DNA of 29,239 bases. It comes from Oculatellaceae cyanobacterium bins.114 (GTDB lineage: Bacteria; Cyanobacteriota; Cyanobacteriia; Elainellales; Elainellaceae). The stretch is taken from contig JANRJA010000165.1 in NCBI GenBank assembly GCA_033764315.1, positions 1 through 29,239 of the forward strand, in the 5' to 3' direction. This document shows, one piece after another, positions 27,001 to 28,238 of the stretch; within the stretch, counting starts at the first letter, position 1; every line of letters begins with the position of its first letter. The position numbers were made by a program.

Positions 27001-28238
27001 GATTTGAACCTGCAACCCTCTGTTTGTAAGACAGATGCTCCACCCTTGAGCTACAGGACTACGAGAGCGGATGATGGGACTCGAACCCATGCGCTGAGTG
27101 TGGCGCACTCAGATGCTTGCCGCTACATCACACCCGCATTTTTTGGAGCGAAAGACGAGATTCGAACTCGTGTCTCCTGGTTGGAAGCCAGGGATGCTTG
27201 CCGCTGCACCACATTCGCATTCTGGGGCTGGTGACAGGATTTGAACCTGCAACCTTTCGCTTACAAGGCGATTGCTCTTCCGACTGAGCTACACCAGCAT
27301 AAGCAGATGGCGAGGCTTGAACTCGCGTCCAGGACATACCAAATCCTGATGCTGACCGACTACACCACATCTGCATTTGGAGCAGGTGACAGGAGTTGAA
27401 CCTGCATGAAGGCTGTACGAAAACCTCATGTTGCCCGTTACATCACACCTGCATTGGTTGGACGCGGGGGTGAGAGTTGCACTCACCGTTGCGAAGCACT
27501 CCCGAAGGGAACCGCAGCTTATGAGACTGCTGAGCCGCTCTTGCTCTATCCCCGCTATACCCCCGGCGAGAGTCGAACTCGCAACAATCCGGGTTTAAGC
27601 CGGGTACGTCTGCCAATTGCGTCACAGGGGCATTTGGTGGGTTGTATAGGGTTTGAACCTATGCACTTCCGCTTAAGAGGCGGCTGCTCTACCAACTGAG
27701 CTAACAACCCGTTTTTCTGCTAGTCAACCGAAGGTTGAACTTGGTGGGTCGCCAGAGATTTGAACTCTGATCTGTCTGCTTAAAAGGCAGCCACTCTAAC
27801 CGTTGAGCTAACGACCCGAATGGTCTGAGTGATAGGGATTGAACCTACGACCTCCGGTTCCCCGAACCGACGTGCTCCCACTGCACCACACTCAGATATG
27901 TGGTACACCGAGCAGGAGTTGAACCTGCTAATAACACGCTTATCGGGCGTGCGCGTCCACCACTTCCGCCTTCGGTGCTTGGTACTCCCGGTGGGAATCG
28001 AACCCACAAAATCTAGATCCTCGGTCTAGAGCGTCTTCCCTTCCGCCACAGGAGCATCAGTACCCTTGGTGGGAGTCGAACCCACAAAATCTGGTCTCTC
28101 AAGCCAGCACGTCTGCCAGTTGGGTCACAAGGGCAAATGGTCGGGATGGTAGGATTTGAACCCACGACTCCTTGGTCCCAAACCAAGGCTTCTGACCACT
28201 GAATTACATCCCGATACTTGGTACTGCTGGTGGGATTT

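What a model noticed while it worked through the whole genome (the two positions that open the first line are those of the whole stretch)
27065..28055. Array tRNAs with C33 and an Ile-anticodon tRNA on a tRNALeu body
Four of the 24 array tRNAs on C69 (Gly GCC 27065-27137, Pro GGG 27821-27895, Ile GAU 27901-27978, Leu GAG 27980-28055) have C instead of the near-universal U at position 33; none of 32 tRNAs outside the array does. The Ile(GAU) gene joins an anticodon arm like that of genuine tRNAIle to a tRNALeu-type D arm (3-bp stem), A8, G1.U72 and A73, so it may be read by LeuRS, IleRS or both.
Evidence so far: Loop sequences and counts: 4 of 24 against 0 of 32 in this genome; 28 of 723 in 34 arrays, in Gly(GCC) 8 of 17, Leu(GAG) 6 of 13, Ile(GAU) 3 of 3, Pro(GGG) 2 of 2; sequence comparison with genuine tRNAIle of two relatives; Rfam tRNA 44.9 bits.
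(Added by a program. Inside this text positions count along the whole contig: contig position 1 is position 1 of the stretch shown here. "Call 12" and the like, gene names such as g00115 and contig names such as C1 are that model's own, and its searches are not shown. The text may have been shortened before it was handed on; [...] marks where a part breaks off. The agent that wrote the report below was given it as the finding of a first reader that could run no searches.)

Follow-up and report, generated by a model that had tools for sequence, protein, structure and literature searches.

The report
Leu-bodied isoleucine tRNA in array
A cyanobacterial cluster of spare tRNA genes holds four tRNAs with C instead of the near-universal U before the anticodon, one of which puts an isoleucine anticodon on a leucine-tRNA body and recurs almost unchanged in many related clusters, so it may bend the genetic code under stress.

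Summary
ARAGORN finds 24 tRNA genes at 26989-29180 (minus strand). Four have C33: Gly GCC, Pro GGG, Ile GAU and Leu GAG. None of the genome's 44 other tRNAs does (Fisher p=0.013).

The cluster is a long tRNA array of the Anabaena trn-operon type. It shares the gene order, and the linked contig carries an HNH gene and three TrcR-box-like motifs.

The Ile(GAU) gene has a tRNALeu-type D arm, A8, A73, a short variable region and an encoded CCA. Its anticodon stem fits the genome's own tRNALeu(GAG) as well as it fits canonical tRNAIle.

The caveat that it is "known only from four near-identical arrays" no longer holds:
- It lies in 33 array loci of many cyanobacterial genera and in 28 metagenome contigs.
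- It is the least variable gene of those arrays.
- It keeps its pairing through compensatory changes, including the tertiary pair 19-56.
- C33 is kept in 31 of 32 called copies.

C33 is also fixed in Pro(GGG) (11 of 11) and in most Leu(GAG) (28 of 33). It arose twice in Gly(GCC). Decay is therefore unlikely.

Which synthetase charges the Ile tRNA is still inference. It carries most IleRS determinants and has lost two reported LeuRS determinants (U8, A20a). However, C33 blocks t6A37 formation in E. coli. My best guess is IleRS (0.45). Dual or Leu charging remains open.

The parts
26989..29180 (-). Downstream part of a long tRNA gene array (L-array): 24 ARAGORN-called tRNA genes plus two tRNA-like stretches that were not called.
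   Evidence: The gene order matches the arrays of Kovacikia, Nostoc, Tolypothrix, Calothrix and the Anabaena trn operon.
27901..27978 (-). tRNA with anticodon GAU (Ile) on a tRNALeu-type scaffold. C33 is at 27945 and A8 at 27971. It has G1.U72, A73, encoded CCA, a 3-bp D stem and a short variable region.
   Evidence: (44.9 bits). Family survey. Covariation.
27980..28055 (-). Short (class-I-shaped) tRNALeu(GAG) with C33 (at 28023), loop ccgagga.
   Evidence: C33 occurs in 28 of 33 array Leu(GAG) genes across subfamilies with different anticodon stems.
27821..27895 (-). tRNAPro(GGG) with C33 (at 27864), loop tcgggga, with a U32-A38 pair.
   Evidence: C33 occurs in 11 of 11 array Pro(GGG) genes, with a compensatory change at pair 29-41 (tcggt/accgg against ccagt/actgg).
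27065..27137 (-). tRNAGly(GCC) with C33 (at 27105), loop gcgccac. G32 and C38 can pair, which would give a 7-bp stem and a 5-nt loop.
   Evidence: The same loop is kept on bodies whose acceptor stems differ by compensatory changes. Positions 32-38 covary as G-C, C-G or A-U.
28060..28134 (-). Second short tRNALeu(GAG), with U33 (loop ttgagag). Its counterparts in related arrays carry the anticodon CAG.
27453..27556 (-). tRNA-like stretch with a CAU anticodon loop and extra bases in the variable region. ARAGORN and Rfam do not call it. It sits where related arrays have tRNA(CAU).
   Evidence: Read. Position compared. Not analysed further.
29013..29092 (-). tRNATyr(GUA)-like gene with a long variable arm, just under the Rfam threshold.
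   Evidence: 28.1 bits; gathering score 29. Related arrays have Tyr(GUA) at this position.

Best explanation
The four genes are working, selected members of a stress-type long tRNA array of the Anabaena trn-operon kind.

The Ile(GAU) gene is an alloacceptor tRNA. It is a tRNALeu-type scaffold with a Leu D arm, a tRNALeu(GAG)-like anticodon stem and no long variable arm, and its anticodon loop now reads GAU-A37-A38. It gives the array an isoleucine acceptor that arrays of the Nostoc type lack.

I infer that it is charged mainly by IleRS. It carries the anticodon, A37, A38, A73, C4-G69, C29-G41 and G16, which define E. coli tRNAIle. It has also changed two positions reported as LeuRS determinants, U8 to A and A20a to G.

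C33 is a fixed feature of four G34 tRNA families of these arrays, not decay. Its effect is inferred. It probably weakens the U-turn and decoding efficiency, and in the Ile tRNA it probably hinders t6A37 formation.

Shown: the structure, the distribution, the conservation and the compensatory changes.
Inferred: the charging enzyme, the modification state and the use in translation.
For: Array identity:
- 24 genes lie in 2.2 kb.
- The gene order is shared with 11 plasmid-borne arrays, including the Anabaena trn operon.
- The array continues on C117, which carries an HNH endonuclease ORF and three TGTAGTA[T/C] motifs upstream. These match the TrcR box TGTAGTAT and the HNH gene all8564 of Anabaena (PMC10272220, passages).
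- In Anabaena, 23 of 26 operonic tRNAs are expressed and charged under translational stress (PMC8421152, section 21).

The Ile family is real and constrained:
- The anticodon-arm pattern hit 45 places in genome contigs. 33 lie in arrays of Leptolyngbya, Kovacikia, Myxacorys, Phormidesmis, Scytolyngbya, Stenomitos, Oculatella, Elainella, Thainema, Desertifilum, Crinalium, Allocoleopsis and others.
- A pattern on the 5' 26 nt found 28 metagenome contigs. All 28 carry the loop CCGATAA.
- On 15 distinct sequences, 99.4% of 330 pair cells are paired. Pair 7-66 changes A-U to G-C in 4 sequences. The tertiary pair 19-56 changes G-C to A-U in 2.
- It is the most conserved of 31 gene families in the 33 arrays, at 0.965 mean identity against 0.68-0.96. 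Outside the searched pattern it is 0.953. Neighbouring genes differ by up to 25-35%.

Identity elements:
- C4-G69, C29-G41, A73, G34-A35-U36-A37-A38 and G16 are read, against the E. coli set in PMC9976931 (sections 11 and 12).
- A8 occurs in 32 of 32 Ile copies, against U8 in 210 of 211 short array Leu tRNAs.
- G stands at the 20a-equivalent in 31 of 32 Ile copies, against A in 162 of 162 motif-matching Leu D loops.

C33 is not decay:
- Pro GGG: 11 of 11.
- Leu GAG: 28 of 33, across stems ctaga, ctagg and ctagt, while loop positions 32, 37 and 38 vary.
- Gly GCC: 16 of 39, on two different bodies.
- Ile: 31 of 32.
Against: - There are no charging, modification or expression data for this tRNA.
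- C33 abolished t6A37 formation by E. coli TsaBCDE on a U33C initiator tRNA (PMC8887486, passages). t6A37 is a strong determinant for bacterial-type IleRS (PMC9976931, section 11). This genome's IleRS has the bacterial C-terminal zinc finger. IleRS may therefore charge it poorly.
- G12-C23 replaces the E. coli determinant at 12-23.
- E. coli LeuRS ignores the anticodon and the long arm. It needs A73, A14 and the G18G19 elbow, all of which are present.
- The high conservation may partly reflect how the arrays were found (through the Ile gene), or a recent spread by recombination among mosaic arrays.
- Some copies are broken: L042 has a D-stem mismatch, L087/L109 carry an insertion in the T arm, and L100 is also disrupted there.
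- The one U33 copy (L062) has G37.
Confidence: 0.45

Rival explanations
1. The Ile(GAU) gene is a dual-identity or mistranslating tRNA. LeuRS still charges the Leu-type scaffold, wholly or partly. When the array is induced, AUC and AUU codons are then read partly as leucine. C33 keeps IleRS away by blocking t6A37.
For: - The Leu-type D arm, A73, A14 and G18G19 are present.
- C33 is an antideterminant for E. coli t6A synthesis (PMC8887486), and t6A37 is a determinant for bacterial-type IleRS (PMC9976931).
- C33 is kept in 31 of 32 called copies and in 28 of 28 metagenome copies. The single U33 copy has G37 instead of A37. No copy therefore combines U33 with A37.
- There is precedent: nev-tRNAIle on a tRNALeu body is charged only with Leu (PMC3333845, abstract). 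tRNAProX mistranslates in Streptomyces (PMC10404621, abstract). The authors of the Anabaena study raised misacylation for an operonic tRNA they call tRNAIle-GAU (PMC8421152, section 21).
Against: - A8 and G at the 20a-equivalent are specific to this family. They fall on positions reported as needed for leucylation: U8:A14 in Aquifex aeolicus and A20a in E. coli (PMC9976931).
- Most IleRS determinants are present.
- No second LeuRS or IleRS gene is seen in the assembly (the genome is 90.7% complete).
- No tRNA with anticodon GAU is found in the Anabaena operon itself. That observation therefore cannot be tied to this family.
Confidence: 0.25
2. C33 is a nuclease-evasion or decoy feature. The array supplies spare tRNAs whose anticodon loops escape, or soak up, anticodon-loop RNases such as VapC or HEPN-type toxins induced under stress. 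C33 is selected for that reason, whichever amino acid is carried.
For: - C33 arose repeatedly and is kept in four families.
- With C33, the loops of Gly (gcgccac) and Leu (ccgagga) contain no U at all.
- Phage tRNAs carry anticodon-loop changes at nuclease sites (PMC10264068, abstract and passages).
- The Anabaena study saw operonic tRNAs cleaved and proposed a sponge role (PMC8421152, section 29).
- Mycobacterial arrays are discussed as anti-defence elements (PMC12803027, passages).
Against: - No nuclease with a requirement for U33 was identified here.
- Most array tRNAs keep U33: 1312 of 1421 in the pooled loci.
- Other Leu(GAG) subfamilies and Pro keep U32.
- This is argument by analogy only.
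Confidence: 0.15
3. The features are neutral passengers. The odd tRNAs are non-functional or barely used. They look conserved only because array cassettes spread recently by recombination and horizontal transfer.
For: - The arrays are mosaics. Matched genes are 64-100% identical between arrays, and many other genes are also 100% identical.
- Some Ile copies are broken: L042, L087/L109 and L100.
- In Anabaena, 3 of 26 array genes are pseudogenes (PMC8421152).
- The arrays were sampled through the Ile gene itself.
Against: - Compensatory changes occur at 7-66 and at the tertiary pair 19-56, and 328 of 330 pair cells are kept.
- Pro(GGG) and Leu(GAG) keep C33 while their stems change by compensation.
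- 32-38 covaries in Gly(GCC).
- The family is spread over many genera.
Confidence: 0.1

Closest known systems
Anabaena sp. PCC 7120 trn operon and cyanobacterial L-arrays (PMC8421152; PMC10272220; PMC4758250)
   Same: It is a dense array of more than 20 tRNA genes with the same gene order. An HNH endonuclease gene and TrcR-box-like motifs lie upstream. The Leu tRNAs lack the long arm, and many genes encode CCA.
   Different: ARAGORN and Rfam find no GAU tRNA in the Anabaena operon. The Ile(GAU), Pro(GGG) and C33-type Leu(GAG) cassettes belong to arrays found mostly in Leptolyngbya-like and other non-heterocystous cyanobacteria. Here the array sits next to ordinary chromosomal genes such as aroB, not on a small plasmid. 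Neither paper's main text mentions position 33 or the variable arm.
Nematode nev-tRNAIle and nev-tRNAGly (PMC3333845, abstract)
   Same: An Ile (or Gly) anticodon sits on a body derived from tRNALeu.
   Different: nev-tRNAs keep the long variable arm and are charged only with Leu by a eukaryotic LeuRS. The cyanobacterial tRNA has lost the long arm, has A8 and C33, and carries most bacterial IleRS determinants. Its charging is untested.
Streptomyces tRNAProX families (PMC10404621, abstract)
   Same: These are bacterial tRNAs that put the anticodon of one amino acid on the body of another. They are linked to stress tolerance.
   Different: tRNAProX genes lie next to a dedicated ProRS isoform, and mistranslation has been shown. 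Here no synthetase gene is nearby, only single IleRS and LeuRS genes are seen, and no functional data exist.
Candida tRNASer(CAG) with G33 (PMC1991585, passages)
   Same: It is a tRNA of changed or ambiguous identity that has lost U33. There, G33 lowers leucylation and decoding efficiency.
   Different: It is eukaryotic, the base is G33 rather than C33, and the yeast LeuRS reads the anticodon loop.
C33 in initiator tRNAMet of multicellular eukaryotes (PMC8887486, passages)
   Same: It is a natural tRNA with C33 before an NAU anticodon and A37. C33 controls t6A37 formation.
   Different: It is an initiator tRNA, and the t6A enzymes of those organisms tolerate C33. The bacterial (E. coli) enzyme does not.
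Phage tRNAs with anticodon-loop changes that evade host tRNases (PMC10264068)
   Same: They are supernumerary, mobile tRNA sets whose anticodon loops depart from the host's.
   Different: That paper's main text does not mention position 33 or U33. The elements here are cellular arrays. A scan of viral contigs found no copy of the array-type Ile gene: 0 of 2 hits.

Membership tests
tRNA (Rfam RF00005) | Score above the gathering threshold and a complete cloverleaf | tested here: met
   Ile 44.9, Gly 42.7, Pro 57.6 and Leu 52.2 bits against a threshold of 29, each matching model positions 1-71. ARAGORN cloverleaves are shown.
Long tRNA array (L-array / tRNA array unit) | At least 20 tRNA genes at two or more genes per kb (definition in the abstract of PMC4758250) | tested here: met
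   24 genes lie in 2192 bases, and 7 more lie on C117.
Anabaena-type trn operon | Conserved gene order; an upstream HNH gene; a TrcR box (TGTAGTAT) at the promoter | tested here: inconclusive
   The gene order is shared. The HNH ORF and three boxes lie on C117, upstream of tRNAAsp. C117 is joined to the window only by a 66-nt identical overlap followed by a 91%-identical stretch.
Anabaena-type trn operon | Induction under translational stress | not testable with these tools
   Contigs from three RNA libraries cover the array, including one 612-nt contig across 27527-28138. DNA carry-over cannot be excluded.
Bacterial tRNAIle (E. coli IleRS identity set, PMC9976931 section 11) | Anticodon GAU, A37, A38 and discriminator A73 | tested here: met
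   The loop is ccGATAA and A73 is present. Both are kept in 31 of 32 called copies.
Bacterial tRNAIle (E. coli IleRS identity set) | Stem determinants C4-G69, 12-23 (U12) and C29-G41 | tested here: inconclusive
   C4-G69 and C29-G41 are present. The 12-23 pair is G-C, so it does not fit.
Bacterial tRNAIle (E. coli IleRS identity set) | D-loop G16, D20 and D21, and a canonical 4-bp D stem | tested here: not met
   G16 and U20 are present, but the D arm is of the Leu type: a 3-bp stem and the 11-nt loop gaagtggtgga. Genuine tRNAIle has gctc/aggtggttag/agc.
Bacterial tRNAIle (E. coli IleRS identity set) | t6A37 | not testable with these tools
   U36-A37 and C32 are present. However, C33 blocks E. 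coli TsaBCDE in vitro (PMC8887486, passages).
Bacterial tRNALeu (E. coli / A. aeolicus LeuRS identity, PMC9976931 section 12) | A73, A14 and G18G19 in a Leu-type D loop | tested here: met
   15 of 17 D-arm bases equal the housekeeping tRNALeu.
Bacterial tRNALeu | The U8:A14 tertiary pair and A20a | tested here: not met
   A8 occurs in 32 of 32 copies and G at the 20a-equivalent in 31 of 32. Short array Leu tRNAs have U8 in 210 of 211 and A in 162 of 162 motif-matching D loops.
Bacterial tRNALeu | A Leu anticodon and a long variable arm (class II) | tested here: not met
   The anticodon is GAU and the variable region is about 5-6 nt. The array's own Leu tRNAs also lack the long arm: 5 of 5 in the window.
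Dedicated mistranslating tRNAs (tRNAProX, nev-tRNA) | The anticodon of one amino acid on the body of another | tested here: met
Dedicated mistranslating tRNAs (tRNAProX, nev-tRNA) | Demonstrated charging with the amino acid of the body, or a dedicated synthetase nearby | tested here: not met
   None of the 10 window ORFs scanned, which span 10220-26496, is a synthetase; the three ORFs scanned upstream of the array on C117 are an HNH endonuclease, a histidine kinase/response regulator and one with no match. The genome shows four Anticodon_1-domain ORFs, of 1109, 976, 869 and 556 aa; I scanned only the 976-aa one, which is IleRS. Charging itself cannot be tested here.

The most novel reading that the evidence does not exclude
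The Ile(GAU) tRNA is a programmed ambiguity device of a stress-induced array. C33 prevents t6A37, so IleRS claims the tRNA poorly. The Leu-derived body is still leucylated to some degree. When TrcR repression is lifted, AUC and AUU codons are then read partly as leucine. The strict conservation of C33 and A8 would set the Ile:Leu ratio. On this reading, C33 in the neighbouring Gly, Pro and Leu tRNAs is a shared way to make slow or nuclease-proof decoders for stress.
Probability: 0.2. Interest if true: 0.85.

Novelty: new variant of a known kind. Interest (0 to 1): 0.68.

Why it matters
Long tRNA arrays are known to help cyanobacteria survive translational stress, but how they do so is open.

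This work defines a widespread and very strongly conserved array tRNA whose anticodon and body point to different amino acids. It also defines a set of array tRNAs that have given up the near-universal U33.

That turns a vague question (do array tRNAs mistranslate, or resist nucleases?) into specific tests on named molecules and positions: C33, A8, G20a and t6A37.

If the tRNA is charged by IleRS, it is a clear natural case in bacteria of a tRNA changing its amino-acid identity. If it is charged by LeuRS, it is a new dedicated mistranslation system.

Tried and rejected

2. I looked for the "operonic tRNAIle-GAU" of the Anabaena study in the delta-plasmid operon (L009). ARAGORN (24 genes) and Rfam give no GAU tRNA. 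Two supplement look-ups did not settle which gene the authors meant. The figure and the other supplements were not seen. Their aberrant-migration result therefore cannot be assigned to this family.

3. A viral-contig scan with the anticodon-arm pattern gave 2 hits. One is a canonical phage tRNAIle with U33, and the other is not a tRNA. No array-type copy was found there.

4. BLAST of the Ile gene against 401 cyanobacterial genomes found full-length copies in only 3 genomes, including the window's own. The exact-pattern scan of all species representatives reached much further.

5. Sequencing runs: no run held half or more of the array's sampled words. Contigs of three metatranscriptome runs cover the array. 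This shows presence in RNA libraries, not transcription, and I draw no habitat from the small shares.

6. I looked for a dedicated synthetase. There is none in the window or on C117, and the genome shows single copies only.

7. I considered that ARAGORN had mis-set the anticodon. The loops are 7 nt closed by Watson-Crick pairs. Only Gly(GCC) allows an alternative 7-bp stem with a 5-nt loop.

8. Puerto-Galan and Vioque 2012 is not in the library and was not read.

9. The 12 pattern hits in loci without tRNAs, mostly non-cyanobacterial MAGs, were set aside as chance or unrelated matches. One of them, L086, reads like the 5' part of a canonical tRNAIle.
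Full report
**Observation**

ARAGORN finds 24 tRNA genes on the minus strand at 26989-29180. 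Reading the base before each anticodon shows C33 in four of them (checked on the sequence):
- Gly GCC, 27065-27137, loop gCgccac.
- Pro GGG, 27821-27895, loop tCgggga.
- Ile GAU, 27901-27978, loop cCgataa.
- Leu GAG, 27980-28055, loop cCgagga.

The assembly holds 68 ARAGORN tRNAs, and none of the 44 outside contig C69 has C33. Seven of those 44 are array-type genes at C117:99-931. Fisher's exact test gives p=0.013 for 4/24 against 0/44, and p=0.039 if the C117 genes are counted with the array.

All four genes exceed the Rfam tRNA threshold of 29 bits.

The genome has no assembled 16S rRNA. Its genuine tRNAIle, which lies in the rRNA spacer in relatives, is therefore simply not assembled.

**What the cluster is**

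The gene order runs Asp, Glu, Cys, Met, Trp, Glu, Tyr, Ser, Arg, Phe, Asn, Gln, Gln, Leu, Leu, Pro, Leu..., Lys, Lys, Leu, Met, Thr, Gly, Gly, Val. It matches tRNA arrays on plasmids of Kovacikia, Nostoc, Tolypothrix and Calothrix, and the trn operon on the Anabaena PCC 7120 delta plasmid.

Contig C117 begins with 66 bases identical to the window's Tyr-like gene, followed by a 91%-identical Glu(UUC) gene. It then carries seven more array tRNAs. Upstream of its first gene (Asp) lie three TGTAGTA[T/C] motifs and a 176-aa HNH endonuclease ORF.

In Anabaena the trn promoter carries the TrcR site TGTAGTAT. The HNH gene all8564 belongs to the same regulon (PMC10272220, passages read). The operon is induced by translation inhibitors, and 23 of its 26 tRNAs are charged in vivo (PMC8421152, sections 21 and 29 read).

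The window therefore holds the downstream two-thirds of an L-array of that kind. Here it lies next to ordinary genes such as 3-dehydroquinate synthase.

**Anatomy of the Ile(GAU) gene**

Its cloverleaf reads:
- acceptor stem gcaccga/tcggtgt, giving G1.U72 and C4-G69;
- A8 and G9;
- a 3-bp D stem gcg/cgc with the 11-nt loop gaagtggtgga;
- G26;
- anticodon stem cacgc/gcgtg, which includes C29-G41;
- loop ccgataa;
- a variable region of about 5-6 nt;
- T arm gcagg-ttcaact-cctgc;
- A73 and an encoded CCA.

The D arm matches 15 of 17 bases of the housekeeping tRNALeu genes of this genome (gcg-gaattggtaga-cgc). It is unlike the 4-bp D arm of genuine cyanobacterial tRNAIle.

That is true: 8 of 10 stem bases match genuine cyanobacterial tRNAIle. 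A canonical tRNAIle of a phage contig and one of a Longimicrobiales MAG match all 10.

The genome's own tRNALeu(GAG) at C139:71014-71094 has g-cacgt...gcgtg-t. That matches 9 of 10 stem bases and both flanking bases 26 and 44.

Two origins are therefore open:
1. A tRNALeu(GAG) lost its long arm and its loop was remoulded.
2. A Leu gene and an Ile gene recombined at the shared gcgcacg junction.

The gene is not a recent copy of its neighbour. The adjacent Leu(GAG) was not among the 30 nearest sequences, all of which were at least 67% identical. The nearest array tRNAs overall are Nostocales Glu(UUC) genes at 73%.

**Distribution and constraint of the Ile family**

BLAST over 401 cyanobacterial genomes gave full-length copies in only three genomes, counting the window's own.

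An exact scan of one genome per species with the 21-nt anticodon arm (Y at 33, K at 36, R at 37) gave 45 places. 33 of them lie in arrays with 9 to 33 tRNA genes within 2 kb on either side. The genera include Leptolyngbya, Myxacorys, Phormidesmis, Scytolyngbya, Stenomitos, Oculatella, Elainella, Thainema, Pantanalinema, Desertifilum, Crinalium, Allocoleopsis, Lyngbya and Aphanocapsa. The other 12 hits lie in loci without any tRNA and were set aside.

ARAGORN called the gene in 28 of the 33 arrays. 27 of these have C33. The exception, L062, has U33 together with G37.

A second scan, of metagenome contigs, used the 5' 26 bases, so the anticodon arm was left free. It gave 28 places, all with the loop CCGATAA. 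Two are disrupted in the T arm, and a few are the same MAG contigs as in the first scan.

The gene always sits at the same place in the array: Pro(UGG) - [Leu CAG] - [Leu GAG, C33] - Ile - [Pro GGG, C33] - Lys.

On 15 distinct sequences (alignment A1), 328 of 330 pair cells are standard pairs. Both exceptions are in one copy, L042.
- Pair 7-66 changes from A-U to G-C in four sequences.
- The tertiary pair G19-C56 changes to A19-U56 in two (L050, L071).
- Pair 1-72 is G.U in 11, G-C in 3 and A-U in 1.
- The anticodon arm could not vary in this set, because it was the search key.

Within the 33 arrays the Ile gene is the most conserved of 31 gene families. Its mean pairwise identity is 0.965, and 0.953 outside the searched 21 nt. 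The others range from 0.68 to 0.96. The arrays themselves are mosaics in which matched genes are 64-100% identical.

Sampling through the Ile gene biases this comparison, and a recent spread would look the same. Even so, the compensatory changes argue for a folded, used RNA.

**C33 in the other three families**

The pooled set is 67 array loci with 1421 tRNAs. It is enriched for Ile-bearing arrays. It holds 98 genes with C33 and 11 with another non-U base at 33.

- Pro(GGG) has C33 in 11 of 11 genes. Its anticodon stem occurs as tcggt/accgg or ccagt/actgg, which is a compensated change.
- Leu(GAG) has C33 in 28 of 33 genes, across stems ctaga, ctagg and ctagt. Loop positions 32, 37 and 38 vary (ccgagga, tcgagag, tcgagaa). 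The U33 forms belong to other subfamilies, including the Anabaena type.
- Gly(GCC) has C33 in 16 of 39 genes, on two different bodies (gcgccac 14 times, acgccaa twice). That makes at least two origins.

In the main Gly body, positions 32 and 38 are always Watson-Crick: G-C with C33 and A39, or C-G or A-U with U33 and U39. Acceptor stems differ by compensated changes.

A Watson-Crick 32-38 pair in tRNAs with G+C-rich anticodons is something I recall from work on E. coli tRNAAla(GGC) as a device that tunes ribosome affinity. I did not look that work up here.

C33 is thus a fixed, recurrent state in four G34 tRNA families of these arrays. It is not random decay. Why these four families carry it is not explained.

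**Which synthetase?**

I used the identity sets compiled in PMC9976931 (sections 11 and 12 and passages read).

For IleRS (E. coli), the tRNA has:
- G34-A35-U36, A37 and A38;
- A73;
- C4-G69 and C29-G41;
- G16.

It lacks the 12-23 determinant and the canonical D arm.

For LeuRS (E. coli and A. aeolicus), it has:
- A73 and A14;
- G18G19;
- an intact elbow.

The anticodon and the long arm do not matter to E. coli LeuRS.

However, the family has A8 in 32 of 32 copies and G at the 20a-equivalent in 31 of 32. The 211 short Leu tRNAs of the same arrays have U8 in 210, and A at that position in all 162 D loops that fit the motif. U8:A14 (A. aeolicus) and A20a (E. coli SELEX) are reported as needed for leucylation.

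This pattern is what an identity switch from Leu to Ile would leave behind, and it is the main reason for my preferred reading.

Two results speak against that reading:
- A U33C change abolished t6A37 formation by E. coli TsaBCDE on initiator tRNA (PMC8887486, passages).
- t6A37 is a strong determinant for bacterial-type IleRS (PMC9976931).

This genome's IleRS has the bacterial C-terminal zinc finger.

No copy in my samples combines U33 with A37. No extra IleRS or LeuRS gene was seen. Charging by LeuRS, by both enzymes, or poor charging by either cannot be excluded.

**Expression**

There are no direct data for this organism. Contigs of three metatranscriptome runs from three studies cover the array. 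One 612-nt contig spans 27527-28138, across Leu(UAA) to the second Leu(GAG), with 10 differences. DNA in RNA libraries cannot be excluded, so this is only a weak hint.

**Comparison with known systems**

The array is a member of a known kind, the cyanobacterial L-array.

The Ile tRNA resembles several known cases:
- nematode nev-tRNAIle, an Ile anticodon on a tRNALeu body that is charged with Leu (PMC3333845, abstract);
- Streptomyces tRNAProX (PMC10404621, abstract);
- Candida tRNASer(CAG), whose G33 lowers leucylation and decoding (PMC1991585, passages).

It differs from all three: it is bacterial, it lacks the long arm, it has C33 and A8, it has no dedicated synthetase, and its charging is untested.

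The idea that supernumerary tRNAs carry loop changes to escape tRNases comes from work on phages (PMC10264068).

The main texts of PMC8421152 and PMC4758250 do not mention position 33. PMC8421152 does not mention the variable arm either, and the three uses of "variable" in PMC4758250 are unrelated to it. Neither "C33" nor "chimer" occurs in PMC8421152. A full-text search for C33, U33, "anticodon loop" and tRNA together returned 17 papers, and none of the 16 listed has a title on bacterial arrays. Puerto-Galan and Vioque 2012 could not be read. I therefore cannot say the features are unpublished, only that I found no description.

**Verdict**

Its main caveat (four near-identical arrays, possibly a dead gene) is removed. 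The functional claim remains inference.

The finding is a new variant of known kinds. It would interest tRNA specialists and can be tested directly.

Noticed in passing
window 27557-27632, 27980-28055, 28060-28134, 28219-28295, 28301-28377: All 5 array tRNAs with Leu anticodons are 75-77 nt long. They have a Leu-type 3-bp D stem but no long variable arm. The 4 housekeeping tRNALeu genes are 81-84 nt. In the pooled arrays, 211 of 228 Leu tRNAs are 80 nt or shorter. I found no mention of this in the main text of PMC8421152.
   Followed up: partly
window 27453-27556 (minus strand): A tRNA-like stretch has a CAU anticodon loop and about 25 extra bases in the variable region. It sits where related arrays have tRNA(CAU). 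Neither ARAGORN nor Rfam calls it.
   Followed up: no
window 29013-29092 (minus strand): A tRNATyr(GUA)-like gene with a long arm scores 28.1 bits in Rfam, just under the threshold of 29, and ARAGORN misses it.
   Followed up: no
window 29032-29235 and G000:C117:1-2301 (L125): C117 starts with 66 bases identical to the window, followed by a 91%-identical Glu(UUC) gene. This points to one array broken in assembly, or to two array copies. C117 adds 7 array tRNAs, three TGTAGTA[T/C] motifs and an HNH endonuclease ORF at 1774-2301, minus strand.
   Followed up: partly
Gly(GCC) genes of the pooled arrays, e.g. L052 against L057: Two Gly(GCC) alleles on the same body differ only at positions 32, 33, 38 and 39 (GC..CA against CT..GT). 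The 32-38 pair stays Watson-Crick, while base 33 (C or U) and base 39 (A or U) switch together.
   Followed up: partly
L016, L018, L019, L022, L024, L026, L030 (arrays of one genus, g4): A gene that ARAGORN labels Tyr(AUA) has A33 and an A/U-rich loop (taataaa) in 7 of 7 copies. It sits where other arrays have Arg(ACG). Its real anticodon and identity are unclear.
   Followed up: no
L087 / L109 (Scytolyngbya MAG) and L100: Copies of the Ile(GAU) gene are interrupted after the 5' strand of the T stem by unrelated sequence. This could be an insertion or an intron-like element. It was not examined.
   Followed up: no
L091 and L077 (array ends): Further unusual anticodons appear in related arrays: Ile(UAU) in L091 and Asn(AUU) in L077.
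   Followed up: no
L009 2280-2363 (Anabaena trn operon): A tRNA-like element between Glu(UUC) and Tyr matches the ends of the tmRNA model at 31.9 bits, below the threshold of 47. No tRNA with anticodon GAU is detectable in this operon, although PMC8421152 names an operonic tRNAIle-GAU.
   Followed up: partly
window 15410-16036 (+) and 16137-16910 (-): Two ORFs with the Uma2 putative restriction endonuclease domain lie between an ABC transporter and a glycosyl hydrolase 57-like gene.
   Followed up: no
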